Origin: Candidatus Kapaibacterium sp. | GTDB lineage: Bacteria > Bacteroidota > Ignavibacteria > Kapaibacteriales > UBA2268 | Assembly: GCA_963678775.2 (NCBI GenBank) | Contig: CAXXGR010000008.1 | Location: 272,632-296,631 of the forward strand | Length of the DNA: 24,000 nucleotides | Direction of reading: 5' to 3' | Shown: piece by piece, positions 1,829 to 19,933 of the stretch | Layout of the letters: every line of letters begins with the position of its first letter | Position numbering within the stretch: position 1 is the first letter of the stretch | Made by a program: the position numbers and the translations under genes | Notes under the pieces: generated by a model | Told to the model about the DNA's origin: nothing | Seen by the model: only the letters and a program-made list of their open reading frames with translations | Database searches by the model: none

Positions 1829-2914
1829 ATGGAATTCATTTTTATCAAAAACTATAAGGCTATAAAGTTATTAAAAATAGATAGCCTTAGTAGAGTAAAT
1901 GTTTTTACCGGTAAAAACAATACAGGCAAATCCTCTTTATTAGAGGCAATCGCACTATTGGCTTCCCAAGGAAGTTTAAAATGGATAAAAATTATTCTTG
2001 AATTACGTGGAGAAAATGTTGATAATGACTTTTTTGACTTTGATAGAAATTATAGAATATTAGCTTCTCTTTTTTCAAATAGGAACAATGCTGTTAATTT
2101 TGAAAATATAATTACTATTGAAAGTAGCAACAAATCTTTCTTTGCACGATTTGTCTATTATGTCAAAAACTACACGCGTGCGATGATAAACGGCAAAGAA
2201 GTTTTCGGAGATGTTACAACCATTTTAAGCAAAGATGAAGAAGATGAAGATAAAAAAGTTGGTTTAGAGATAGGTAATGATGAAGATGCCCATCTATTGG
2301 AATTTGATACCAATATGTTAAAAATCAACAGTTTATCTCAAGAATCTACTCCCATACATTTCATAAATTCTTACGGGAAAGCTTTAGAGGAATCATCAGT
2401 ATTGTGGGATAAAATAACTCTGACTGATAAAGAAGATTCCGTGGTAGAAGCACTTCGAATTATTGATCCTAAAATACAGAGGTTGTCTTTTATTAGCGAA
2501 GAATATTCCAATAATAAAAGATACCCAGTTGTTAAACTTGAAGGAAGTAAGGAAGTCTTGCCACTTCAAAGTATGGGTGATGGTATAAATCGTATTCTGA
2601 AGGTGATTCTGGCAGCAGTTAACTGTGAAAATGGAACATTGCTTATTGATGAGTTTGAAAACGGATTACATCATAGCGTTCAACAAAAACTATGGGAAGT
2701 CATATTTAGTATTTCTAAAAAGTTAAATATACAGGTGTTTGTTACTACTCACAGCGAAGATGCAATTCATACATTTGCAAAAGTTTTAGAAAAAGACGAA
2801 ACTAATGAAGGTAGTTTGTATCGATTAGCTTATCGCAATGATAATCTTACCGCAAATCTATTTACAGAAGAAGAAATAAAAAATGCAGCTAAACTAAATA
2901 TAGATTTGAGGTAG
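1829..2914 (+). CDS. stand-alone ABC/SMC-like ATPase (AAA_21/AAA_15-type), predicted conflict-system ATPase
   Basis: Walker A GKNNTGKS (aa 28-35), signature-like LQSMGDG, Walker B LLIDEFENGLH and H-loop VTTHS. A long insert separates Walker A from the signature motif. No transporter partner is present. Confidence 0.8.
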   Translation: MEFIFIKNYKAIKLLKIDSLSRVNVFTGKNNTGKSSLLEAIALLASQGSLKWIKIILELRGENVDNDFFDFDRNYRILASLFSNRNNAVNFENIITIESSNKSFFARFVYYVKNYTRAMINGKEVFGDVTTILSKDEEDEDKKVGLEIGNDEDAHLLEFDTNMLKINSLSQESTPIHFINSYGKALEESSVLWDKITLTDKEDSVVEALRIIDPKIQRLSFISEEYSNNKRYPVVKLEGSKEVLPLQSMGDGINRILKVILAAVNCENGTLLIDEFENGLHHSVQQKLWEVIFSISKKLNIQVFVTTHSEDAIHTFAKVLEKDETNEGSLYRLAYRNDNLTANLFTEEEIKNAAKLNIDLR

Positions 2915-2915
2915 T

Positions 2916-3524
2916 ATGGATAAGATTCTTTTAGTAGAAGGAAGTGATGATCTTCATGTTTTTTCAGCACTATTTGAAAAATATAAGTTACCTGAATCAT
3001 TCAAAATTGAAGATACAAAAGGTATTTCAAATCTATTAGCTTCAATCCCTATTTATATCAAGGCTCAGCAAACTCATATAGGAATAGTTGTTGATGCAGA
3101 TGAAGACTTGCAAGCCCGTTGGCAAGCTGTTACTAGTCAATTAGAACCTTTTGGTTATAGAATACCTGCTTCTTCGAATCCTCAAGGATCTATATTAAAA
3201 AATACTGGTTATCCGACCGTTGGAATATGGGTAATGCCAAATAACCAATTGACAGGCATGATTGAAGATTTTATGGCATATCTTATTCCTGAACATGATT
3301 TGCTGCTGGAAAAAGCAGGTGTAATTTTAGATCAGTTAGAAGCAGAAGGTCTAAACAAATACAAGGCAATTCATAAATCAAAAGCTAAAATCCATACTTG
3401 GCTTGCTTGGCAAAAGTCACCCGGAACTCCTTTGGGATCAGCTATCACAAAGAAATACTTCGATGCGAACAATAAAGAAGCACAAAAATTTATTCAATGG
3501 ATTAGGGATTTGTTTGACTGTTAA
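2916..3524 (+). CDS. Toprim-like (DUF3226/DUF4435/OLD-nuclease-like) protein partnered with the ABC-type ATPase
   Basis: ATG lies 1 nt after the ATPase stop, with GAGG 4 nt upstream. N-terminal ILLVEGSDD (Glu8) plus IVVDADED (Asp60, Asp62) match the Glu + DxD Toprim signature. Family assignment is by eye only. Confidence 0.6.
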   Translation: MDKILLVEGSDDLHVFSALFEKYKLPESFKIEDTKGISNLLASIPIYIKAQQTHIGIVVDADEDLQARWQAVTSQLEPFGYRIPASSNPQGSILKNTGYPTVGIWVMPNNQLTGMIEDFMAYLIPEHDLLLEKAGVILDQLEAEGLNKYKAIHKSKAKIHTWLAWQKSPGTPLGSAITKKYFDANNKEAQKFIQWIRDLFDC

Positions 3525-7953: not shown

Positions 7954-7985
7954 GTCGTTCTTCGAAAGTGGAGCGGCTTTTTTTT
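7954..7985 (+). terminator. rho-independent terminator after nrdJ
   Basis: GTCGTTC (7954-7960) pairs with GAGCGGC (7971-7977), giving 7 bp with two G-U pairs and a 10-nt loop. A T8 run follows at 7978-7985. Confidence 0.55.
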
Positions 7986-8087
7986 ATGCAGTATTCTTCA
8001 ATACATAATTATAATTAGTTATTTCTTAATTTTACAGTTATATTGCAAGCTATTAATATAAAATGATTTATTTCTTGAGGGAACTAA

Positions 8088-8441
8088 ATGTACTATTTAA
8101 TCAATCCTTTTAAAAATATTTTCAATTATTCCGGTAGAGCATCCAGAAAGGAATTTTGGATGTTTCAGCTTTACTATTTTATTCTATATATCTTACTGAT
8201 TTTCCCTTTAAGTTTCATAATTATGCTATTTGATACTGATATAGATAATCTTTCAGATATATTTTTCTTTGGTTTCCTTATATTACACAGTATTGTTAAT
8301 TTATCTATATCTGTTAGAAGAATTCACGATTTAAATAAAAGTGCGAGTTATTTGTTTTATAGTTTTATTCCTTTGGTGGGACATACAATAGACGAACCGC
8401 ATTATAAGTTCAGCAATAAAAGCAGGTACACTTTATGGTAA
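8088..8441 (+). CDS. DUF805-family membrane protein with aberrant/truncated C-terminus
   Basis: It has the N-terminal GRASRKEFW motif, hydrophobic segments and the SVRRIHDLNKS loop motif typical of DUF805 (YhaH/YhaI-like). After IPLVG the sequence diverges, lacking the usual hydrophobic segment and the G.N.YG.DP end. GAGGGA lies upstream of the ATG. Confidence 0.6.
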   Translation: MYYLINPFKNIFNYSGRASRKEFWMFQLYYFILYILLIFPLSFIIMLFDTDIDNLSDIFFFGFLILHSIVNLSISVRRIHDLNKSASYLFYSFIPLVGHTIDEPHYKFSNKSRYTLW

Positions 8442-9043
8442 AAGCTTCAATAGTAATCCTAATTCTTACTTTAGCACTGCAGGGTTGTGTATTCGATATT
8501 GCAGGATTCGTAATTAGAGGAGGAAGAGCTCCATTAGGAAAGCTTGAATATTTAAATAAGTACACAGATTCAGTGAAAGCGTTGGCAAAACCTTTAAGAA
8601 CTGATGGATATTATTATGCTATTGGGTCACGCTATACTTTAGACACAAAACACGATTATATGATATTGGTCCTATATTATGATGGAACAGTTTTTGTAGA
8701 ATCATGGTATGATCCTGACGGTGAATATGTAGCAGATTTTTCTGAAAGTAATGTTGAATATTTAATTCAAAAAAATAGAAATTTTCGAGCGACCTGGGGT
8801 GCATACATAATAGAAAAAGACAGTATCAAATTTCAATATTATACACCTAGTGATAATATTTTCTGTGATTTTTTGAGAACCTATAAAGGCACTATCATAA
8901 ATGATTCCACAATACACTTTAAATATTATCATGATACGAAGTGTGGTGGTTCTTATCCAAAGAAAGGACAAATTGATTTCGAGTTCAAATTCTTTCCAAT
9001 GGAAAACAAACCGGACTCAAGTAATACCTTTTTGTTTAAATGA
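8435..9043 (+). CDS. hypothetical lipoprotein
   Basis: The N-terminus MVKASIVILILTLALQGC is a signal peptide with a lipobox-like LQGC. The start overlaps the upstream stop by 7 nt. No family recognised. Confidence 0.6.
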   Translation: MVKASIVILILTLALQGCVFDIAGFVIRGGRAPLGKLEYLNKYTDSVKALAKPLRTDGYYYAIGSRYTLDTKHDYMILVLYYDGTVFVESWYDPDGEYVADFSESNVEYLIQKNRNFRATWGAYIIEKDSIKFQYYTPSDNIFCDFLRTYKGTIINDSTIHFKYYHDTKCGGSYPKKGQIDFEFKFFPMENKPDSSNTFLFK

Positions 9044-9062
9044 TAAAAAATGAGATAAATCT

Positions 9063-9272
9063 ATGAAACACAAAAAACTAGTCATAATGCTACTATTAGC
9101 ATTGCTGCAAACTTCGAGTTTGCTTGCGCAGCACACGATAACTTTCGGCTATGACGCTGCCGGAAATAGGAATCAAGTAAATTCTCCTATTTCATGCTTA
9201 GAAATTGATTGCCCCTGCCCGGATAATACCGACGGGTGGTTAGTGTTGGATGCTACACAACAAGAGGCATAA
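9063..9272 (+). CDS. small secreted protein with a single YD (Rhs-type) repeat and a Cys cluster; possible Rhs remnant
   Basis: The signal peptide is MKHKKLVIMLLLALLQTSSLLAQ. ITFGYDAAGNRNQV then matches the YDxxGR/N YD-repeat core, followed by SCLEIDCPCPD. Only 69 aa long. Confidence 0.45.
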   Translation: MKHKKLVIMLLLALLQTSSLLAQHTITFGYDAAGNRNQVNSPISCLEIDCPCPDNTDGWLVLDATQQEA

Positions 9273-9728
9273 GTTTCGTATTTTTTCTAGCTATTATTTT
9301 TTTAATAGCTATTGACCCCGTTGGCACTTGGGGACCAAAATATAATCAAGATGTTATTTCACAAAATATTGGCGGTAAATTAGTTCTTGATATATGTTAT
9401 ACAGCAGATCACCATGATTGGGATTATAACGAATTATATTTTTCCTGAGGCTCTTGCAGATGATGGTCATTCTCTAGGAATCAGTATAGGAGTTATCATT
9501 TTTATGGTAATTCTATTGCCGGACTTTTCCATAAATCTTTCTCTCACAGTAAGAAGACTTCATGATATTAACAAAGAAGGTACTTATGTGTTATGGAGTT
9601 TTGTTCCGCTTGTAGGTGGAATAATACTATTGATGGCATTGATCGAATCAGGTGATATAGGCAAAAACTACTATGGTGAAGATCCAAGAGATATAAGAAG
9701 AAAGAAACAAAATATAGAAAATTTTTAA
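9236..9728 (+). pseudogene. chimeric/frameshifted remnant: a TM segment and the start of the unrecognised domain joined to the C-terminal half of a DUF805 protein
   Basis: Two overlapping ORFs lie in different frames. ORF 9236-9448 encodes FVFFLAIIFLIAI...VISQNIGGKLVL, which resembles the TM plus TISQSIGGELLY block of the 17450-18547 protein. ORF 9387-9728 encodes only the DUF805 C-terminal half (TVRRLHDINKEG...VPLVGGIILL...GKNYYGEDP) and lacks the GRAxRxEYW N-terminus. Confidence 0.5.
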
Positions 9729-9736
9729 AAGTGGCT

Positions 9737-9768
9737 AAGGATATCCGAATAAATAGATATCTTTTTTT
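9737..9768 (+). terminator. rho-independent terminator
   Basis: AAGGATATC (9737-9745) pairs with GATATCTTT (9756-9764) across a 10-nt loop. The stem runs into a T-tract ending at 9768. Confidence 0.55.
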
Positions 9769-11482: not shown

Positions 11483-11680
11483 ATGAGTCTTTCAATAAAT
11501 CTTGAAATGAAAATGCACAACGATTCTAATTTAGAACAAAACCAAACACCTACAAACAATGCATCAAAGAAAGTTGATTTAGTTACACTTTTAGATGATA
11601 TAGACCAAGGTGAAATATATAAAGAGTTCGAAACCGGTAATGATGTTGGTAATGAGATTTTAGAAACGGAAAAAATATGA
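11483..11680 (+). CDS. small acidic hypothetical protein (65 aa)
   Basis: AGGAAA lies 6 nt upstream of the ATG. The stop overlaps the next start (ATGA at 11677-11680). The C-terminal half is Asp/Glu-rich. No family recognised. Confidence 0.5.
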   Translation: MSLSINLEMKMHNDSNLEQNQTPTNNASKKVDLVTLLDDIDQGEIYKEFETGNDVGNEILETEKI

Positions 11681-12612
11681 AGGAAATTTTCAATTTAATT
11701 TATATCATAGCTATACACATTGTATGTTTGCCAATATTATATGTTTTTATATATTTTACTTTTACGAATACTCTTAGATTATTCTTGATTTCGGATATTA
11801 GATTGAAACCAATCTTATCTAAACCTTTTGGTATTGTCGGCATTTGTTTAGTTGAGTATTTTCTGATATTAGCGGATATACCAGATGAAATTACGAACCT
11901 ATTTATGTTTCTAAATGTAATTTTAGCTACTAATATTTTATTCTACAAAATTATTCTAAGTGCAAGAAAAAAAAATGGAAGACCTTTTTTAATTGCACAT
12001 TTAGGAACTGCAGTTGTTCTATTGCAGACATTGATTGCATTTACCGTTTCAGCATATTTAGATAAAACCAGTCCAAATGAATACTACGACGGTAAACCTA
12101 CGATTGATATCATAAAGCAGGATATTGGAGGATATTTAAGAGTTGAAAAAGTATCAGATATCTATGATTCTTGGAATATCAAGACTAAATACATGTATAT
12201 TACTCTTTCCAACGATACTTTGAAACTTGGTGAAGGATACTTCTATCAAATTTGGCAACCACCTATTAATCAGATTTATAAATACAAAAACTGGTATTTA
12301 TTGCCTTCATCAGAGCGAAAGGAATCAAAATTGATAATGTGGAATTTGGAAACTGAAGCAATAAAAAATTGGATTCTATCAGAAGATGATATTATTGACA
12401 CTGAAATATGGCAAGATAACGAACCAGACAGTTATGAGAATAATACAGACAAATCTTGTAATTTTATATCAAAAATTAAAGACAACATCGTTTTTATTAG
12501 ATACGAATATAAATCTTTAGACTCTGAAATTGAAGAAGATTCCCGTATACTAAAATATAAAATCGATCAGCAGACTGGTGATTTAACTTTGATTGATGTC
12601 ATTGAGGAGTAA
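11677..12612 (+). CDS. membrane protein: about 4 TM helices plus an unrecognised soluble C-terminal domain (shared with the 17450-18547 product)
   Basis: Four hydrophobic segments lie in aa 1-128. Three blocks in aa 131-311 are collinear with the C-terminus of the 17450-18547 protein: IIKQDIGGYLRVEKVS vs TISQSIGGELLYNMKIT, NWYLLPSSERKESKLIMWNL vs EWFIIPVNEDLSAQLLMYNF, and ILKYKIDQQTGDLTLIDV vs YVVYQIDEESGELSYYDM. Confidence 0.65.
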   Translation: MKEIFNLIYIIAIHIVCLPILYVFIYFTFTNTLRLFLISDIRLKPILSKPFGIVGICLVEYFLILADIPDEITNLFMFLNVILATNILFYKIILSARKKNGRPFLIAHLGTAVVLLQTLIAFTVSAYLDKTSPNEYYDGKPTIDIIKQDIGGYLRVEKVSDIYDSWNIKTKYMYITLSNDTLKLGEGYFYQIWQPPINQIYKYKNWYLLPSSERKESKLIMWNLETEAIKNWILSEDDIIDTEIWQDNEPDSYENNTDKSCNFISKIKDNIVFIRYEYKSLDSEIEEDSRILKYKIDQQTGDLTLIDVIEE

Positions 12613-12614
12613 AA

Positions 12615-13136
12615 TTGGATTTATTTTGGGAAATAATATACTGGTCAGGCTTGCATCTTGCATTTGCCTATCCCCTATTCCTTTTTTTTAAGATAAGCAT
12701 TACTATACTTAATGCAATTGAAGCAGAAGGTTCAAACAAAAGGAGACAGAGAATTTATTTGATTCTGTGTTGCTTAGCTGTGCTTACAATCGAAGCTCTG
12801 GTCTTCACTAAAGCCCTTCCACATTGGCTGATGATGCTACAGATATTTATAAATCTGATGATTCCCAGTTTCCTGATTTACAGCAAGATGCACGACAAAC
12901 AAAGAGAGCAAAAATTGAAAGAAAATGGGAATGTGTTTATCATAACTTTGATTTATATTCCACTAATTGCTCTCAGCATGGGTGTGGCATTTGCTGTTAC
13001 TATATTTATGATGGACTTAACTAATAAAATGGATACTAGAAACTGTGAATTTCAAATCATTCTGCCATCTTACCCGCCATTTACAAGGGAGGGTCGGTTT
13101 TCCATAGGAAAAGCGGGGTGGGTTTTAACGCTCTAA
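12615..13136 (+). CDS. membrane protein (about 4 TM), tandem paralogue of the TM module of the preceding gene, without the soluble domain
   Basis: TTG start with GAGGAG 5 nt upstream, inside the end of the previous gene. TM3 plus the basic loop (LQIFINLMIPSFLIYSKMHDKQ...) parallels LFMFLNVILATNILFYKIILSARKK of the upstream protein. The C-terminal 40 aa are non-homologous and overlap a G-rich structured stretch. Confidence 0.5.
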   Translation: MDLFWEIIYWSGLHLAFAYPLFLFFKISITILNAIEAEGSNKRRQRIYLILCCLAVLTIEALVFTKALPHWLMMLQIFINLMIPSFLIYSKMHDKQREQKLKENGNVFIITLIYIPLIALSMGVAFAVTIFMMDLTNKMDTRNCEFQIILPSYPPFTREGRFSIGKAGWVLTL

Positions 13137-13241
13137 ACTATCCCTCCAAAAAACCACGTACACACTCTCTTATTTTATGCATGCCTGTTAAATTTTGCGT
13201 ATATTATAAAATATCATTAATTATATAATTACACAAAAAAC

Positions 13242-15806
13242 ATGGCAAAAGATAAATATATCAATGATCAAGCTGCAACTACCGATGACTTCGGTACGCA
13301 CGCCAATATAGCCACCACCCTACTAGACACAATCGCAGATGAAGATAATAAGCCAATGACTATAGGTCTGGAAGGCTCCTGGGGCTCAGGTAAGTCCACT
13401 GTTGTGAATTTGATGTTTGAGGGAATAAAGAACGGTTTTATCGAATCTAAAACGGCTGAAGAAAACTCTGATTCTCAAAAAAATGAAACTTGGAAAAACA
13501 TCGAATACTTTTATATAGATGTTTGGCAGCACGAGCACTCTTGTATTAAGAGGGCAATTTTGCATGAGATGATAAAGACTTTGAAAAAAAAAGAAATTTA
13601 CAAAGGTCTTGATCCAATAGAAAAAGAACTGCACGGAACAACTACTAAGACATTCGTCACACCCTTTAGTATAATTCTTGCTTTTGCTGTAGTTGTAATT
13701 CCACTTATCGCAGCAATTTTGAATAATGCAGATTTAAATAATCTAACCTGGGAATTTACTGGATCGTTCGAAATAAATCTGATTGTTAGTATTGTATTAC
13801 TTGTTGCTTCTATTGGTGTTTTATTTAAATGCACTCCTAAACTCCTAAACATAACTGATAGATTTAAAAATAAAGATAACAAAAAAGAATTCCTTCTAGT
13901 TGAACAAACAACTACGACCTTTGAAAATTCTTCAATCGAGTTCAGTAGACACTTTAATGATATATTAGAAGTAGTAAATGGACAAAACAGTAAAAAGAAA
14001 ACCCTAATAGTCTTCGACAATCTCGACCGCATAGATGAAAAGAAAGCCAAAGAAATGTGGGCAGAGCTTCAAGTATTTATGCAGTATAGAAACCCGGGGG
14101 CAACTGAAGAAGAAAAAGAAGAACGCCCGTGGATTATTATTCCTTATGATTTAGATGGAATAAGGAAGATTTGGGGAGAGGAAGATGAGAAAAAGGCTTA
14201 CTCTAAAGAAGAACTAAATAAGAGACTTGAACTTCTTATCAATGATCGTGAAAGTAATCCAATTAAATCTTTTTTAGATAAAACTTTTTCTTTTAGAGTT
14301 CATGTGCCAAAGCAAATTACTAGTTACTGGAATTTTTACTTAGACAAATTTTCATGCAATTCCCCAGCGTCTATTCCTAGCATCGAATATCATATCACCT
14401 TAAAAGAAGCAGAAGATAATGAAGACTATTTTAGTGACGATAAAATTTTCAAAACAATTAAAAAAGTAATAGAATTTAAAGATCTTCAAAGCATAAGTAA
14501 ACCAATAAAACCGCGGGAAATAAATGATATTTTAAATACAGTAATTTTCTATAGAAATTTGATCTGTAAAATTAAAAACCACTCAATTTCTATTGAATCA
14601 TTATGCTTCTTTGCTTATCACTATTCTAGAAACGGACATTTGACACAAGAAGACAAACTTAATGTTGCCTATATCTCTGATCAGCAAATTTTAAAAAATA
14701 ATTTTCCAGTATATAAAGAAATAGACTATAATTTAAATTTAGATGCGATAGACTATCAACTTGACTTAACGAGTACAATAGAAATTACAATGGTTGACTT
14801 AATCCCAAACTATAAAAACAGTGGTAATAGATCTATCTGCTTAGATAAACTCTCTGATCTTGAAAATCAATTTAGCAATCTATTTTGGAAGAGAATACAT
14901 TCTTTTCTAACTTATGGGAATGATTTCAATACATATATCTGTTATTCTAATATACTAATGTTTTTCCACTCTAAATACAATGCATTTCATAATGATATTT
15001 ATCAGTGTTTATGTCTGCTAAATGATTTATTTATAAAGCAAAATATATCAACAATAGCTTTCAATAAATCTGGGAAAAACTACCTAAAATTAATTCATCA
15101 ATATAATATTGCAGATAACAACACAGATTTCCTCAATAAAGTCTTGAACGCATACAAAAAATGGATCCTCGAAACATGGCACAACAAAAGCAATAGTCTT
15201 GTCGATTTTAATATTTATTTAGAAATTTTTTCTATTGCAAAAATGCTTGATAAAGATTTTGTTATTAATATTAATTATAAAAACTATAATATGCTAATAG
15301 GAGCAATAATTGTACAAAAGATTATACTTCGTAACTTTTTTAACCTCGAAGAAAACAACTTTTACCCACAAAATGAGAAAACTATTGATCAAATTGGAAA
15401 AGTACGACTAACTGATTTAGTATTAGTGATTTTATTTACTAATGAATATAATAAGGAGTTTTTACAAAAGATATCTGAAGAAATATTAAAGATATTAAAA
15501 TATGCAGTAAAAAATGCTGAATACGAATCATTTGCTCATTTGTTAATAAGCATTTGGGAGTCTTTTAAAATCTTCTCACAGGCAAAAATACCAAATGATA
15601 CACCTTTGACAAATTTATTTCGAAAAGTATTATTGCATCAAATTACTTGGAAATATATTGATTTTTGTAATAATATTTTAGAGATGGAGGAGTTTAAAAT
15701 TATACCTGACATACTGGATGCTGACTCAAGTAATATCTCTGAATCCATAAAAAAAAGTGATCTAAATAGAGCTATTTTAAATCGCATAAAAATAGGGAAA
15801 CAATAG
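13242..15806 (+). CDS. KAP-family P-loop NTPase with a transmembrane hairpin inserted in the NTPase domain
   Basis: Walker A is GLEGSWGSGKST (aa 42-53) and Walker B is TLIVFDNLDRID (aa 254-265). Two hydrophobic helices (about aa 141-160 and 178-195) lie between them, as in KAP NTPases. YIDVWQHEH matches the family's conserved W after Walker A. A long helical C-terminal region follows. Confidence 0.82.
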   Translation: MAKDKYINDQAATTDDFGTHANIATTLLDTIADEDNKPMTIGLEGSWGSGKSTVVNLMFEGIKNGFIESKTAEENSDSQKNETWKNIEYFYIDVWQHEHSCIKRAILHEMIKTLKKKEIYKGLDPIEKELHGTTTKTFVTPFSIILAFAVVVIPLIAAILNNADLNNLTWEFTGSFEINLIVSIVLLVASIGVLFKCTPKLLNITDRFKNKDNKKEFLLVEQTTTTFENSSIEFSRHFNDILEVVNGQNSKKKTLIVFDNLDRIDEKKAKEMWAELQVFMQYRNPGATEEEKEERPWIIIPYDLDGIRKIWGEEDEKKAYSKEELNKRLELLINDRESNPIKSFLDKTFSFRVHVPKQITSYWNFYLDKFSCNSPASIPSIEYHITLKEAEDNEDYFSDDKIFKTIKKVIEFKDLQSISKPIKPREINDILNTVIFYRNLICKIKNHSISIESLCFFAYHYSRNGHLTQEDKLNVAYISDQQILKNNFPVYKEIDYNLNLDAIDYQLDLTSTIEITMVDLIPNYKNSGNRSICLDKLSDLENQFSNLFWKRIHSFLTYGNDFNTYICYSNILMFFHSKYNAFHNDIYQCLCLLNDLFIKQNISTIAFNKSGKNYLKLIHQYNIADNNTDFLNKVLNAYKKWILETWHNKSNSLVDFNIYLEIFSIAKMLDKDFVININYKNYNMLIGAIIVQKIILRNFFNLEENNFYPQNEKTIDQIGKVRLTDLVLVILFTNEYNKEFLQKISEEILKILKYAVKNAEYESFAHLLISIWESFKIFSQAKIPNDTPLTNLFRKVLLHQITWKYIDFCNNILEMEEFKIIPDILDADSSNISESIKKSDLNRAILNRIKIGKQ

Positions 15807-15826
15807 AAAATCTTTAATTAAAAAAT

Positions 15827-15867
15827 CCCCCACTCTCAAAATACTGAAAGTGGGGGTTTCATTTTTC
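15827..15867. terminator. bidirectional rho-independent terminator between the KAP NTPase gene and glyA
   Basis: CCCCCACT (15827-15834) pairs with AGTGGGGG (15849-15856). The stem is flanked by A-rich sequence on the left (aaaaaat) and T-rich sequence on the right (tttcattttt), so it can serve both convergent genes. Confidence 0.8.
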
Positions 15868-17185: not shown

Positions 17186-17396
17186 TTTTGATTTCCTCGA
17201 TTTTTATTTAAAATTGGGTATAATTCAATAGGAAAATGTGCTAGTGTAAAATTATCCAAAATAAAGGATATTATCAAATGATTTTGGTTTCAGTAATCAG
17301 GAATAAAAGTATTACGAATGGTGAATATGTAAAAGTAACAATATATAAGCACATTTTATGATATTAAATCAGCTAGCACCTGCACAAAATGGAAGA

Positions 17397-17421
17397 GGCA
17401 ACTCTAAATTTTAGAATTGCC
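17397..17421 (-). terminator. possible terminator hairpin downstream of the DUF805-fusion gene
   Basis: GGCAACTCTA pairs with TAGAATTGCC (one mismatch), 29 nt past the stop. On the minus strand it is followed by tcttccattttgtg, a modest T-tract. Confidence 0.35.
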
Positions 17422-17449
17422 CCAATCACTAAAAATATAATCAAATAAT

Positions 17450-18547
17450 CTAATCAAATTGCATATCATAGTAGGAGAGCTCACCGCTTTCTTCATCAAT
17501 TTGATAAACTACATAACGGAATTTCTCAGGATCAGGATCTTCACCCAATTTAATATCTTTAGGATCAATCATTATAATTGATACAAGATCACCGTAAACT
17601 TCACCAATATAGAATAAAGTATTTTTTGTGATGTAAGATTTTTCTTCTCCGTAAATATTTTTGCTGATAAAATTGTAGTCTATCTTCTGTAGTAATGTTT
17701 CATCTTTAGCAAAGTTATACATCAAAAGCTGAGCAGATAGATCTTCATTTACCGGAATAATAAACCACTCTCCAAAAAGTCCCATTTCCAAGTTTTCAAG
17801 AAGAGGTTCACGTTTGCAGTTCGCAGATCCTATATAAGTAGTGTCATTTGCTTCTGAAATATAGCTAAAATCAATATTATGTTTCTTTGATAGTTGACTA
17901 CCGGTAATCTTCATATTATAAAGCAGTTCACCGCCAATTGACTGACTTATAGTACCAGTTTTATCTTCATCTACTTCAGTCATCCCGTCTTTAACCAGAA
18001 AACCAATTAAAGTAAAAAAGCCAATGACACCCAGAGCAATGACAATAGAAGCAAAAATTGTAATTAATTTTCTCTGTTTCCTGATCTTTTCTTTTCTTTT
18101 CTGTATAAAACTCTCTGTTTCTTCATCAGAATCGGAAGGATACTTATCTTTGTATGGATCTTCACCATATTGATTCTCCCCTACATCACCCGGTAATAAG
18201 TGCATAGCAAAAATACTAAATGCTCCAAAATAAGGAATAATTCCCCAAAAAATATTATACCCACTTTTACCTATATCATGGAAACGTCTGATAGATAAAA
18301 ATATATTTGCTATCATCAAAATTAAGATATAAATAGTGAGAAAAATAAAAAACACCCCACTTATAGAACTATAAGTGAATTCAGGATCATTCAGCATTTT
18401 GAATTCAACCCCAACGATATGTTTTAGAAATTGCACAATTAGGAATGGTATAAACCACGACATAAAGAAAAACAACCAGTATTCTTTTCGGGTGGCTCTG
18501 CCCTGGAAGTCAAACAATTTTTTGAAGTAAATTTTGTAGTCGTTCAT
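17450..18547 (-). CDS. DUF805 membrane module fused via an extra TM helix to an unrecognised about 170-aa C-terminal domain
   Basis: Aa 1-131 form a complete DUF805 (GRATRKEYW, SIRRFHDIGKSG, GENQYGEDP). A charged linker, a TM helix (ITIFASIVIALGVIGFFTLIGFLV) and a domain homologous by eye to aa 131-311 of the 11677-12612 protein follow. Confidence 0.75.
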   Translation of the reverse strand: MNDYKIYFKKLFDFQGRATRKEYWLFFFMSWFIPFLIVQFLKHIVGVEFKMLNDPEFTYSSISGVFFIFLTIYILILMIANIFLSIRRFHDIGKSGYNIFWGIIPYFGAFSIFAMHLLPGDVGENQYGEDPYKDKYPSDSDEETESFIQKRKEKIRKQRKLITIFASIVIALGVIGFFTLIGFLVKDGMTEVDEDKTGTISQSIGGELLYNMKITGSQLSKKHNIDFSYISEANDTTYIGSANCKREPLLENLEMGLFGEWFIIPVNEDLSAQLLMYNFAKDETLLQKIDYNFISKNIYGEEKSYITKNTLFYIGEVYGDLVSIIMIDPKDIKLGEDPDPEKFRYVVYQIDEESGELSYYDMQFD

Positions 18548-18663
18548 AAGTCTTTAAAATCAAAGTGTAAAAAGAATTGCAAATATATATATAATATTTA
18601 TTATATCATAATAAGCATTGATATAAATTACTCTTATCTTTATCATGAAGTTATTATACTCTT

Positions 18664-19866
18664 CTACTCAAACTCCATCAAAAACTTGCGCACGTGTAGG
18701 TGCTCTATACCTTTATAATTGCCATCTGCAAATGGATCCATTGATATTAGAATTTTTCTGTAATTGTCATCTATCTCAAGTAGATTTCCGAACTCTCTTT
18801 GCCTTGTGGATTCGTCTGATAGCATATAAGCGACTTGTATATAGATAGTATTATCACCTTTTTTGGAAACAAAATCGATTTCTTTATCGCCGAGTTTCCC
18901 TACATAAACATCATACTGCATAACTTTCAGATGATGATACACAAGATTCTCCAAAACTTTAGATATATCATTTATCTGATATGGTACTATTGAGTGGCGT
19001 AATCCCAAATCTTCTAAATAGAACTTTTCACCAATTTCGAATATCTTCTTGCCTGCAACTTCGCTTCTTTTTACTCTATCAGTAAAGAATACACTTTCCA
19101 AATGCGAGAGATATTCAATAATAGTTTTTGCCTGAATATTCATATTCCGTGATTTTAGAGACTTACTTATATTTTGAGCTGAAAATATATTCCCCAAATT
19201 ATCGCATAGAAAATGTATCAGATTATCAAGAAAACTAATATTTCTAATTTTATATCTTTCTACCACATCACGCAAAACGATGGAGTTGTATATGTTTTTT
19301 AAGTACTCGTAGTAAACAGCTTCATCTTTCTTTAGATTGATAAGGTGCGGCATTCCTCCATACTTTATATACTCCAATAAACTTGCATCACTATCTTCAA
19401 GCTTATGAAAATCTAAAAACTCTTTGTAAGAAAGAGAAAATATACGAATTTGGATATATCTTCCGGCAAGAAGAGTAGCTATCTCGCCCGAAAGCAGCTT
19501 GGCATTACTACCCGTGCAATAAATATCATATTTGCCTGTTGTAGAGAAGTGCCTTAACACCTTCTCAAATTGCTCTATATCCTGTACTTCATCAATAAAC
19601 AGATAGTTATTTGATTCAAAGGACTTTGCTTCTACAAACTCAATCAGAGACTTATAATCAACAATGTTATCGAACTCATAGCTTTCTTTATTGATATAAA
19701 TAATATGAGCTTCCGGGTTAGCATTTTGTATTTCATCCATCAATTGATAAAATATATAGCTTTTCCCTACTCTACGCTGACCAATAAGTACTTTTATCAA
19801 ATTAGAATCGATATAAGGTCTTATTCTTTCGATATAAATGTTACGTGATTTGAATGACTTTTGCAT
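18664..19866 (-). CDS. AAA+ ATPase of the AAA_14 + DUF4143 (COG1373-like) family
   Basis: Walker A is IGQRRVGKSY and Walker B is NYLFIDEVQ. The C-terminal region contains GDKEIDFV...IYIQVAY, typical of the DUF4143 region of this family. Confidence 0.8.
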   Translation of the reverse strand: MQKSFKSRNIYIERIRPYIDSNLIKVLIGQRRVGKSYIFYQLMDEIQNANPEAHIIYINKESYEFDNIVDYKSLIEFVEAKSFESNNYLFIDEVQDIEQFEKVLRHFSTTGKYDIYCTGSNAKLLSGEIATLLAGRYIQIRIFSLSYKEFLDFHKLEDSDASLLEYIKYGGMPHLINLKKDEAVYYEYLKNIYNSIVLRDVVERYKIRNISFLDNLIHFLCDNLGNIFSAQNISKSLKSRNMNIQAKTIIEYLSHLESVFFTDRVKRSEVAGKKIFEIGEKFYLEDLGLRHSIVPYQINDISKVLENLVYHHLKVMQYDVYVGKLGDKEIDFVSKKGDNTIYIQVAYMLSDESTRQREFGNLLEIDDNYRKILISMDPFADGNYKGIEHLHVRKFLMEFE

Positions 19867-19872
19867 ACTATT

Positions 19873-19933
19873 TTACTTATAAGTAACAGAATGCCTAAAT
19901 ATACAAAAAGTTTTACTTATAAGTAAAACTTTT
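19873..19933. repeat. twin palindromic sites upstream of the AAA_14 gene
   Basis: The palindrome TTACTTATAAGTAA occurs at 19873-19886 and 19913-19926, 40 bp apart, each inside an identical 16-mer TTTTACTTATAAGTAA. The distal copy extends to a perfect 28-bp palindrome, AAAAGTTTTACTTATAAGTAAAACTTTT (19906-19933). Confidence 0.85.

What the first reader, a model, noticed from the sequence alone, without database searches (positions are those of the whole stretch)
13242..15806. KAP-family P-loop NTPase with intradomain TM hairpin and a long divergent C-terminal region
Seen: Walker A GSWGSGKS, then two hydrophobic helices (nt about 13662-13826), then Walker B LIVFDNLDR. This is the hallmark KAP topology. 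About 590 further residues are very AT-rich, Asn/Ile/Lys-rich and helical-looking, with no recognisable domain. Established: KAP NTPases are membrane-embedded NTPases that are sporadically distributed and often sit in variable regions. To my recollection, the single-gene 'transmembrane NTPase' (Tmn) anti-phage systems reported in 2020 are of this type, but I cannot verify that here. Inference: this is a defence or abortive-infection NTPase, alone or together with the upstream membrane trio.
Basis: partly seen in the sequence, partly recalled or inferred. Interest (0 to 1): 0.65.

Follow-up and report, generated by a model that had tools for sequence, protein, structure and literature searches.

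The report
Membrane-anchored KAP NTPase, probable phage defence
This gene encodes a membrane-anchored ATPase of the KAP family that most likely defends the cell against viruses; it has a known architecture, and its notable feature is that closely related genomes carry very different, recombined versions of it at the same chromosomal position.

Summary
ORF 13242-15806 (854 aa) passes the Pfam KAP_NTPase threshold. It has Walker A GSWGSGKS, a two-helix transmembrane hairpin inserted before Walker B LIVFDNLDR, and an all-helical C-terminal region. It belongs to an unannotated subfamily of mostly ~1100-aa KAP proteins. Members of that subfamily lie inside restriction-modification operons, next to integrases and on plasmids. 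It hits no PADLOC Tmn model. Its only defence-library matches are the P-loop N-termini of PifA and QatA.

The host is a Candidatus Kapabacteria MAG. The gene sits convergent with glyA in four related genomes and is absent from the same slot in a fifth. A genome with ~95% identical flanks carries an allele only 40% identical, and the divergent block coincides with the ORF. The four alleles are recombinant mosaics: conserved NTPase core segments separate swapped transmembrane and C-terminal cassettes. The last 414 residues have no relative among 1.84 billion representative proteins, yet the frame stays open (P about 2e-17).

The upstream membrane trio is not coupled to the gene.

Verdict: probable single-gene antiphage sensor-effector that works like Tmn or the recently validated KAP defence proteins. 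It is a new member of a known kind. The function is inferred, not shown.

The parts
13242..15806 (+). KAP-family transmembrane P-loop NTPase gene, 854 aa. This is the whole unit. The block that diverges between near-identical genomes coincides with this ORF.
   Evidence: ORF. Pfam KAP_NTPase 43.9 bits. Nucleotide identity to L004 is 95-100% up to 13239, falls at the ATG, and returns at 15820.
13374..13397 (+). Walker A motif GSWGSGKS (aa 45-52), with catalytic Lys51
   Evidence: G45, W47, G48, G50 and K51 are invariant across 88 subfamily members.
13641..13847 (+). Transmembrane hairpin (aa 134-202) inserted in the P-loop domain between Walker A and Walker B, with a short outward loop at aa 162-177
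   Evidence: Hydropathy. AlphaFold2 helices 141-161 and 178-209. A hairpin at the same position in nearly all of the 40 top homologues.
13575..13990 (+). Variable cassette 1 (aa 112-249): the hairpin and its flanks, exchanged between alleles
   Evidence: No nucleotide match to L004 despite ~95% identical flanks. Amino-acid identity is 27-41% between alleles, except P0002-P0004 at 91%. L001-L004 nucleotide identity here is 83-93% against a background of about 80%.
14004..14030 (+). Walker B motif LIVFDNLDR (aa 255-263)
   Evidence: D259, D262 and R263 are invariant across 88 members. It lies in the conserved core segment 13991-14192, which is 88% identical to L004.
14193..15806 (+). Variable cassette 2 (aa 318-854): the helical C-terminal arm, the presumed sensor
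   Evidence: No nucleotide similarity to any other allele. Amino-acid identity 18-25% for aa 441 to the end. All-helical in AlphaFold2. GC 0.26.
14562..15803 (+). Orphan part of the arm (aa 441-854), with no relative in public protein space
   Evidence: phmmer against 1.84 billion representative proteins found only the query itself plus one spurious hit. The frame is open with P about 2e-17.
13137..13241 (+). Upstream intergenic region, presumed to hold the gene's own promoter. Conserved with L004.
   Evidence: 105-nt AT-rich gap after the trio. 97-98% identical to L004. No promoter was demonstrated; the sigma-70 scan was no better than shuffles.
15827..15856 (.). GC-rich hairpin with T-runs on both sides. 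Probably a bidirectional terminator shared with the convergent glyA. It marks the right edge of the variable block.
   Evidence: Terminator scan and sequence. Homology to L004 and L007 resumes at 15820/15821.

Best explanation
The gene encodes a self-contained, membrane-anchored antiphage sensor-effector of the KAP P-loop NTPase family.

Shown here:
- A two-helix hairpin inserted in the core, which places the NTPase and the long helical C-terminal arm on the cytoplasmic face of the inner membrane.
- Accessory status and a defence-type genomic context across the subfamily.
- Recombinational replacement of the hairpin cassette and the arm cassette between lineages.

Inferred by analogy with Tmn, PifA and the validated KAP defence proteins:
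- The protein oligomerises in the membrane.
- The variable C-terminal arm binds a phage-encoded trigger.
- Binding changes NTP turnover and the conformation of the oligomer.
- The ring of hairpins then disturbs membrane or ion homeostasis, as in Mg2+ export and plasmolysis by Tmn or leakage by PifA. Phage replication stops.

Allele diversity at this fixed locus is produced by homologous recombination. The conserved NTPase-coding segments and the flanking genes serve as homology arms, which gives the population a panel of specificities.
For: Family and architecture:
- Pfam KAP_NTPase is above threshold.
- K51, D259, D262 and R263 are invariant in an 88-member alignment.
- The hairpin is present in nearly all of the top 40 homologues and is modelled with the core at pLDDT 80-95.
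- The whole-model fold search gives RdrA of RADAR, ORC and CED-4 as best matches. This indicates a STAND/AAA+-like core followed by helices.

Accessory and hypervariable:
- L004 flanks are ~95% identical in nucleotides (RNR 99.7%, CreD 97.8%, SHMT 98.6%, PdxJ 100% in amino acids), but the KAP alleles are 40% identical.
- The divergent block runs from the ATG to just after the stop codon.
- The gene is absent from the same slot in L007.
- The mosaic is discordant with genome relatedness. Window versus L001 is 96% identical at gene nt 31-210 against a background of about 80%. L001 versus L004 is 83-93% identical in the hairpin cassette.
- The orphan C-terminus stays open (P about 2e-17), so selection maintains it.

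Context of seven distant relatives:
- Two lie in or next to type I-like R-M operons.
- Two lie next to integrases in mobile elements.
- One is flanked by AAA_15/AAA_21 ATPase gene pairs.
- One is beside an IS481-type transposase.
- One is beside a helicase and an HTH-M78 regulator.
- Relatives also occur on plasmids of six genera.

Literature:
- Tmn has the same architecture and a variable C-terminal solenoid that sets specificity. Activity needs Walker A.
- Single-gene KAP NTPases with transmembrane helices and unknown C-termini protect against phages and need Walker B and the C-terminal region.
Against: - No experiment exists on this protein or its subfamily.
- There is no PADLOC hit beyond about 55 N-terminal residues to QatA and PifA, and no Tmn hit.
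- There is no Pfam YobI-ATPase hit for this allele.
- The protein is about 300 aa shorter than its typical relatives, so the arm may be truncated.
- The C-terminal model is of low confidence. pLDDT is below 55 beyond aa 700 in the full model and averages 59.8 in the C-terminal model. The solenoid assignment rests on non-significant fold matches.
- Only four alleles exist in public data and all come from MAGs, so some mosaicism could in principle reflect strain-mixed assembly.
- Immediate neighbours are housekeeping or membrane genes (glyA, CreD). The window also carries an AbiL-like pair and a PDC-S01 candidate, but these lie 10 kb and 3 kb away.
Confidence: 0.6

Rival explanations
1. It is a lineage-specific housekeeping or regulatory membrane NTPase. 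For example, it might control assembly of a membrane complex with neighbours such as CreD, the DUF805 proteins or the upstream trio, with no role in conflict.
For: The gene keeps the same position, convergent with glyA and downstream of CreD, in four Kapabacteria genomes. KAP NTPases were originally proposed to regulate membrane-associated complexes (quoted).
Against: - It is absent from the slot in L007, where CreD and glyA remain.
- The allele is replaced in a ~95%-identical background while the 65- and 311-aa trio proteins stay 99-100% identical.
- Alleles in L001 and L003 lack the 65- and 311-aa genes.
- Distant relatives have unrelated, mobile or R-M neighbours.
- A housekeeping gene would not carry an orphan, recombining C-terminus.
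Confidence: 0.1
2. It is a conflict gene aimed at something other than lytic phage. Examples are exclusion of plasmids or other mobile elements, or an addiction or selfish module that promotes its own retention.
For: Relatives ride on plasmids and integrase-bearing elements. PifA, the best PADLOC match for the subfamily, is F-plasmid-borne (background). The same slot holds MazEF in L003 and IS copies in L001.
Against: No partner antitoxin-like gene is conserved with it. All experimentally tested proteins of this architecture were found to act against phages. There is no integrase or transposase in the window itself.
Confidence: 0.15
3. It is a decaying or truncated relic of a formerly ~1100-aa KAP gene, and its AT-rich C-terminus is drifting without function.
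For: It has 854 aa against about 1100-1150 aa in most relatives, and the alleles vary from 725 to 979 aa. GC is low, the sequence is an orphan, and the model confidence is low beyond aa 700.
Against: - There are 0 in-frame stops in 414 codons at 26% GC, where about 37 are expected.
- All four alleles are intact ORFs ending just before the same terminator.
- Catalytic residues are invariant.
- Divergence is far too great for in-situ drift at ~5% flank divergence, so it reflects exchange of functional alleles.
Confidence: 0.07

Closest known systems
[quoted passage not shown]
   Same: - A single gene with no conserved operon.
- Walker A, then two transmembrane helices inside the P-loop domain, then Walker B of the D-x-L-D-R type.
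- A long alpha-helical C-terminal region that carries most of the variability.
- Found on chromosomes and plasmids across phyla, including Bacteroidota.
   Different: - No PADLOC Tmn model hit for this protein or for 43 relatives.
- The best profile is KAP_NTPase, not YobI-ATPase. YobI is only a weaker secondary hit in some relatives, for example 40.7 against 62.4 bits in P0002.
- 854 aa against a median of about 1270 aa in the E. coli clades.
- The proximal/distal arm and ARM/HEAT layout could not be confirmed.
- Here the hairpin itself is a swapped cassette, whereas in Tmn the hairpin is described as conserved.
EF_KAP and three metagenomic KAP P-loop NTPases shown to be antiphage (PLoS Biol 2026, PMC13552941)
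   Same: They are single proteins with a KAP NTPase domain, transmembrane helices and a C-terminal region without known domains or structural relatives. Protection needs both Walker B and the C-terminal region.
   Different: [quoted passage not shown] It comes from Firmicutes and is linked to small serine recombinases.
PifA (F-plasmid KAP NTPase that excludes phage T7)
   Same: It is the best PADLOC match for the subfamily (E down to 5.8e-22, 43 of 43 full-length members; this protein 6.8e-08). It is in the KAP family and has a membrane-linked abortive mechanism.
   Different: The match covers only about 50-110 N-terminal residues. PifA lacks transmembrane helices. The C-termini are unrelated.
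QatA of the QatABCD system
   Same: KAP-type P-loop N-terminus (PADLOC E 1.3e-08; NCBIfam QatA 35.7 bits).
   Different: The NCBIfam cut-off is 600 bits, so it is far from met. No qatB, qatC or qatD neighbours are present. The architecture is different.
STAND-type immune NTPases (Avs, CED-4/Apaf-1-like) and RdrA of RADAR
   Same: It works alike in outline: a P-loop core followed by a helical, repeat-like sensor region that varies. The best fold matches are RdrA, ORC and CED-4. Some relatives carry TPR or beta-propeller C-termini (P0067, P0074, P0084).
   Different: TM-scores are only 0.14-0.24. No separate effector domain exists, so the membrane hairpin is the only candidate effector. It is not a STAND member by profile (nSTAND_NTPase5 16.3 bits against a cut-off of 34).

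Membership tests
KAP family P-loop NTPase (Pfam PF07693) | Match to the family profile above the curated threshold | tested here: met
   43.9 bits against a cut-off of 20, E 2.3e-11, aa 21-279. Alleles and relatives score 52-110 bits, some over the full profile.
KAP family P-loop NTPase (Pfam PF07693) | Intact Walker A (GxxGxGKS/T) and Walker B (hhhhDxLDR) | tested here: met
   GSWGSGKS at aa 45-52 and LIVFDNLDR at aa 255-263. K51, D259, D262 and R263 are invariant in 88 sequences.
KAP family P-loop NTPase (Pfam PF07693) | Transmembrane helices inserted within the NTPase domain. This is the original description as I recall it from Aravind et al. 2004, and as quoted. | tested here: met
   Two hydrophobic helices lie between Walker A and Walker B. 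Flanking positive charges fit a cytoplasmic NTPase.
Tmn defence system (PADLOC/DefenseFinder definition; YobI family) | Match to a Tmn HMM of PADLOC-DB | tested here: not met
   No Tmn hit at E<=10 for this protein. None at E<=1 for 43 subfamily members. Caveat: I ran no positive control with a bona fide Tmn.
Tmn defence system (PADLOC/DefenseFinder definition; YobI family) | [quoted passage not shown] | tested here: not met
   No PF20693 hit at E<=0.01 for this protein. In relatives it is secondary to KAP_NTPase, at 26-41 against 62-110 bits.
Tmn defence system (PADLOC/DefenseFinder definition; YobI family) | Two transmembrane helices inside the P-loop domain, in a single-gene system without a conserved operon | tested here: met
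   for the helices. Searches show no conserved neighbour.
Tmn defence system (PADLOC/DefenseFinder definition; YobI family) | C-terminal proximal coiled-coil arm plus distal ARM/HEAT alpha-solenoid | tested here: inconclusive
   All-helical with 15-20-residue helices. Only weak, non-significant matches to solenoid proteins, and the model pLDDT is 59.8.
Tmn defence system (PADLOC/DefenseFinder definition; YobI family) | Decameric membrane complex; phage-triggered ATP turnover, Mg2+ export and plasmolysis; antiphage phenotype | not testable with these tools
   This needs expression, phage challenge, cryo-EM or multimer modelling. The features are described.
QatABCD (QatA) | QatA equivalog score, with qatB, qatC and qatD neighbours | tested here: not met
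   NCBIfam QatA scores 35.7 bits against a cut-off of 600. The neighbours are a membrane trio and glyA.
PifA | Full-length similarity to PifA, a soluble KAP protein without transmembrane helices | tested here: not met
   Only aa 12-63 match the PADLOC PifA model. This protein has a transmembrane hairpin.
Validated 'KAP NTPase fused to an unknown antiphage region' class (PMC13552941) | KAP NTPase domain, membrane helices and a domain-less C-terminal region in one protein | tested here: met
   The architecture is as described.
Validated 'KAP NTPase fused to an unknown antiphage region' class (PMC13552941) | Sequence relatedness to EF_KAP or the three tested ORFs; antiphage phenotype | not tested
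   The sequences are not held in the library.

The most novel reading that the evidence does not exclude
This is a chromosomal single-gene defence locus that diversifies by shuffling modules. The conserved NTPase-coding segments act as built-in recombination arms. The transmembrane hairpin cassette and the C-terminal sensor arm assort independently between lineages: P0002 and P0004 share a 91%-identical hairpin but have arms only 25% identical. On this reading the membrane hairpin, with its short outward loop, is itself a target of selection, for example escape from phage inhibitors or an effect on specificity, and not just an anchor. The ~1100-aa KAP subfamily would then be a defence family that current defence-finding HMM sets do not recognise.
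Probability: 0.3. Interest if true: 0.55.

Novelty: new member of a known kind. Interest (0 to 1): 0.4.

Why it matters
Membrane-anchored NTPase defences are only now being characterised. The Tmn preprint and the experimental validation of KAP defence proteins both date from 2026.

- This locus extends the architecture to an uncultured lineage (Candidatus Kapabacteria) and to a KAP subfamily that PADLOC models do not capture beyond the P-loop.
- It offers a natural experiment. Four alleles share one NTPase core at one chromosomal position, but their hairpin and arm cassettes have been shuffled. These are ready-made chimeras for asking which module sets phage specificity and what the hairpin does.
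- If the defence function is not confirmed, the locus remains a clear example of whole-ORF allelic replacement bounded by the start codon and the terminator.

Tried and rejected
- Tmn membership: no PADLOC Tmn hit for the protein or for 43 relatives, so it is not filed as Tmn. I could not obtain a bona fide Tmn or EF_KAP sequence for a positive control or a direct comparison. Neither paper has supplements held, and only accession numbers appear.
- QatA and PifA: only the P-loop N-terminus matches.
- Solved structures by sequence: none.
- Fold search of the full model: weak STAND/AAA+-like hits only.
- C-terminal-only model: low confidence, with only non-significant alpha-solenoid matches.
- Source of the C-terminal cassette: nothing among 1.84 billion representatives. 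P0121 is a spurious hit to an unrelated NDH2-like protein.
- In-genome diversification mechanism (silent cassettes, shufflon or DGR-like repeats): no partial gene copies and no meaningful repeats in the window.
- More alleles: two metagenome scans found none.
- Phage origin: no PHROG hit and no match in 50,697 phage records.
- Operon with the upstream trio: rejected from synteny and from the lack of co-variation.
- Antisense ORFs 13386-13634 and 13598-14050: not conserved in the other alleles, so treated as spurious.
- Promoter scan: not above shuffles.
- Rfam and tRNA scans of the window: nothing.
- The 2004 KAP paper could not be retrieved. Its content is cited from memory and from the quotation.
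Full report
**1. Observation**

The window has one ATG-started ORF at 13242-15806 on the + strand, 854 aa long. Walker A GSWGSGKS is at aa 45-52. Walker B LIVFDNLDR is at aa 255-263.

Two strongly hydrophobic helices lie between the two motifs. Hydropathy gives aa 134-166 and 171-202. AlphaFold2 gives helices 141-161 and 178-209. Lys/Arg-rich stretches flank the hairpin and the 16-residue connecting loop is acidic/neutral. The NTPase and the C-terminus should therefore be cytoplasmic.

Pfam KAP_NTPase scores 43.9 bits against a cut-off of 20. The C-terminal part has GC of about 0.26 and is rich in Ile, Asn, Leu and Lys.

The coding region is real. The last 414 codons contain no in-frame stop, against 38 and 59 in the other forward frames. 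None of 20000 shuffles was stop-free, and the composition-based probability is about 2e-17. Antisense ORFs inside the gene are not conserved in the other alleles.

**2. Family**

A search of 5.8 billion protein clusters returned three close relatives and more than 100 distant ones.
- The close relatives are P0002-P0004, 725-979 aa long and 42-51% identical over about half of the query.
- The distant relatives are 25-30% identical, and most are 1100-1160 aa long.
- Every listed hit carries PF07693, and the hairpin sits at the same place in nearly all of the top 40.

In an 88-member alignment G45, W47, G48, G50, K51, D259, D262, R263, R425 and N432 are invariant. Homology to the subfamily is colinear up to about aa 560-640. 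The protein is about 300 residues shorter than typical members.

The last 414 residues are an orphan. A full phmmer scan of 1.84 billion representatives found only the query and one spurious hit.

The subfamily scores best with KAP_NTPase (52-110 bits). YobI-ATPase is a weaker secondary hit in some members (26-41 bits), and is not detected in this allele.

**3. Defence libraries**

For this protein PADLOC gives only about 55 N-terminal residues to QatA and PifA (E about 1e-8) and nothing else up to E=10. Across 43 full-length relatives the hits are PifA, QatA and the candidate PDC-S20. None hits Tmn.

NCBIfam QatA scores 35.7 bits against a cut-off of 600. There is no PHROG hit, no match in phage genomes and no solved relative by sequence.

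**4. Structure**

The full-length AlphaFold2 model has mean pLDDT 73. The core is at 80-95, aa 440-690 at about 70-89, and the region beyond aa 700 is below 55. It shows a P-loop alpha/beta core with the protruding hairpin, followed by helices only.

The best fold matches are RdrA of RADAR (E 2.8e-4, TM 0.24), ORC subunits and CED-4. This indicates a STAND/AAA+-like core with a helical extension.

A separate model of aa 395-854 has pLDDT 59.8. It matches only alpha-solenoid proteins, none significantly: designed helical repeats, eIF3a PCI, AP2, karyopherins and TPR proteins. A solenoid-like arm is plausible but not established.

**5. Genomic setting and evolution**

This is the most informative result. 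The flanking genes identify the host as a Candidatus Kapabacteria/Kapaibacterium MAG.

In four related genomes (window, L001, L003, L004) the KAP gene occupies the same slot, downstream of CreD and convergent with glyA. The rest of the CreD-glyA interval differs between genomes:

| Genome | Other content of the CreD-glyA interval | KAP allele |
|---|---|---|
| Window | membrane trio (65, 311, 173 aa) | P0001, 854 aa |
| L004 | membrane trio (65, 311, 141 aa) | P0004, 979 aa |
| L001 | transposase genes | P0002, 835 aa |
| L003 | MazEF, a TonB-dependent receptor, small ORFs | P0003, 725 aa |
| L007 | a relative of the 173-aa protein and a 188-aa ORF | none |

L007 has SHMT 97% identical to the window. 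Its homology to the window resumes at 15821.

L004 is a near-identical background. Its flanks are ~95% identical in nucleotides. In amino acids RNR is 99.7%, CreD 97.8%, the 65- and 311-aa trio proteins 99-100%, SHMT 98.6% and PdxJ 100% identical. The KAP proteins are only 40% identical.

Nucleotide identity to L004 changes along the gene as follows:
- 97-98% up to 13239.
- It falls at the ATG.
- It persists weakly in the two NTPase core segments (13242-13574, and 13991-14192 at 88%).
- It is undetectable in the hairpin cassette (13575-13990) and from 14193 to the stop codon.
- It returns at 15820, just before a shared hairpin terminator at 15827-15856.

Module-wise identities do not follow genome relatedness:
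- The N-terminal segment of the window allele is 96% identical in nucleotides to L001, against a background of about 80%.
- The hairpin cassette of P0002 and P0004 is 91% identical in amino acids. The window's cassette is 27% identical to both.
- All C-terminal arms are 18-25% identical to one another.

Five percent flank divergence cannot produce this pattern by in-situ mutation. The alleles are recombinant mosaics in which conserved core segments separate exchangeable cassettes. No silent cassettes or repeats exist in the window. Two metagenome scans found no further alleles. Variable modules have lower GC (0.26-0.30) than core modules (about 0.37-0.40) in all four alleles.

**6. Context of distant relatives**

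| Relative | Neighbourhood |
|---|---|
| P0059 (Microbulbifer) | between hsdS and hsdR of a type I R-M operon |
| P0044 | directly after an R-M helicase and a methylase/specificity fusion |
| P0007 (Methanolobus) | in an element with an integrase and a protein-primed-type PolB |
| P0098 | next to the integrase of an element with primase and terminase genes |
| P0034 | flanked by AAA_15/AAA_21 ATPase gene pairs |
| P0071 | beside an IS481-type transposase |
| P0041 | beside an AAA_30/UvrD helicase and an HTH-M78 regulator |

Relatives also occur on plasmids of Thermaerobacter, Fulvitalea (next to an integron-type integrase), Vibrio, Bacteroides, Rhizobium and Haloterrigena. This is the distribution expected of a defence gene.

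**7. The upstream trio**

The 65-, 311- and 173-aa genes overlap one another and are separated from the KAP gene by 105 nt. Three points argue against a functional unit:
- The 65- and 311-aa proteins are 99-100% identical between the window and L004 while the KAP gene is replaced.
- The 65- and 311-aa genes are absent next to the alleles in L001 and L003.
- A relative of the 173-aa protein persists in L007 without a KAP gene.

**8. Literature**

Tmn was first described as a KAP-type NTPase with two helices inserted in the P-loop domain. A 2026 preprint (PMC13001434) reports the following:
- It assigns Tmn to the YobI family.
- It reports a decameric membrane complex.
- Tmn recognises phage T2 RIIB through variable cytosolic helical arms.
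- Recognition raises ATP turnover and causes Mg2+ export and plasmolysis.
- Variability is concentrated in the C-terminal region, and there is no conserved operon.

A 2026 PLoS Biology paper (PMC13552941) shows that single KAP P-loop NTPases with membrane helices and domain-less C-termini protect against phages. Protection needs Walker B and the C-terminal region. The kind of system is therefore known.

**9. Mechanism**

Shown here:
- The protein belongs to the KAP family.
- The catalytic motifs are intact.
- The hairpin is inserted inside the NTPase domain.
- The C-terminal arm is helical.
- The gene is accessory and its alleles are recombinant mosaics.
- Subfamily members sit in defence-type genomic contexts.

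Inferred:
- The protein oligomerises in the membrane.
- The arm binds a phage protein.
- NTP turnover and a conformational change follow.
- The hairpin ring perturbs ion or membrane homeostasis and halts infection.

I give about 0.6 to a defence function of this general kind and about 0.3 to a specifically Tmn-like ion-export mechanism.

Rivals:

| Rival | Confidence |
|---|---|
| Conflict gene aimed at other mobile elements, or a selfish module | 0.15 |
| Housekeeping membrane regulator | 0.1 |
| Decaying relic | 0.07 |

**10. Verdict**

The KAP identity and the defence-like, patchy character hold. Membership of Tmn as currently modelled fails. The link to the trio is rejected.

This is a new member of a known kind. 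Its value lies in the mosaic allelic series at a fixed locus and in flagging a KAP subfamily that current defence HMMs miss.

Caveats:
- All genomes are MAGs.
- Only four alleles exist.
- I ran no positive control for the Tmn model.
- There is no experiment.

Noticed in passing
window 1829-3524 (+): A two-gene pair of an AAA_15/AAA_21 ATPase (361 aa) and a DUF3226 protein (202 aa). It matches PADLOC PDC-M38A/B (E 6e-92 and 9e-64) and AbiLi (4e-59). The segment 1676-3521 is absent from the near-identical genome L004, where RarA abuts PAP2. It therefore looks like an inserted defence islet.
   Followed up: partly
window 18664-19866 (-): An AAA_14 + DUF4143 ATPase (400 aa) matches the PADLOC candidate PDC-S01 over its full length (E 9.4e-144). 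It is conserved at 97% in L004. A similar gene lies near the KAP homologue P0044 in L058 (16593-17726).
   Followed up: no
window 7984-9768 and 17297-18663: Two further segments are absent from L004. The first holds small DUF805-like membrane proteins (8088-8441, 9387-9728) and a 202-aa putative lipoprotein. The second holds a 365-aa DUF805 protein (17450-18547). DUF805 paralogues recur in variable numbers around this locus in L001 and L003.
   Followed up: partly
window 12615-13136 (173-aa ORF); L004 9373-9892: The third gene of the upstream trio differs from L004 by a frameshift near its 3' end (141 aa in L004, with the last 36 residues in another frame). It also has a local dip to 67-87% nucleotide identity at 12640-12760, although its surroundings are 95-100% identical.
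   Followed up: partly
window 11677-12612 and 17450-18547: The C-terminal soluble part of the 311-aa trio protein (aa 105-308) is weakly similar to the C-terminal part of the 365-aa DUF805 protein (24% over 213 aa, pairwise E 2e-6). This suggests a shared uncharacterised domain on two different membrane anchors.
   Followed up: no
L003 5847-6424; L001 8618-9713 and 15652-18213: The same CreD-glyA interval carries a MazE/PemK toxin-antitoxin pair and a TonB-dependent receptor in L003. In L001, DDE transposase genes lie within the interval and further copies lie beyond glyA and the DUF805 gene. The slot is a general hotspot for accessory genes.
   Followed up: partly
L052 4577-15057 and L058 3083-10727: Two distant KAP homologues are embedded in, or directly follow, restriction-modification operons (hsdS-hsdM-hsdS-KAP-hsdR in Microbulbifer thermotolerans). 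This may be a recurrent association worth a systematic count.
   Followed up: no
L057 5914-11270 (Fulvitalea axinellae plasmid pFA5): A ~1090-aa KAP homologue lies about 1 kb downstream of a gene annotated as site-specific tyrosine recombinase/integron integrase. It may be a cassette-like acquisition.
   Followed up: no
window 19906-19933: A perfect 28-nt palindrome lies in the gap between the AAA_14 gene and the 591-aa alpha-amylase-like gene. It is probably a terminator hairpin.
   Followed up: no
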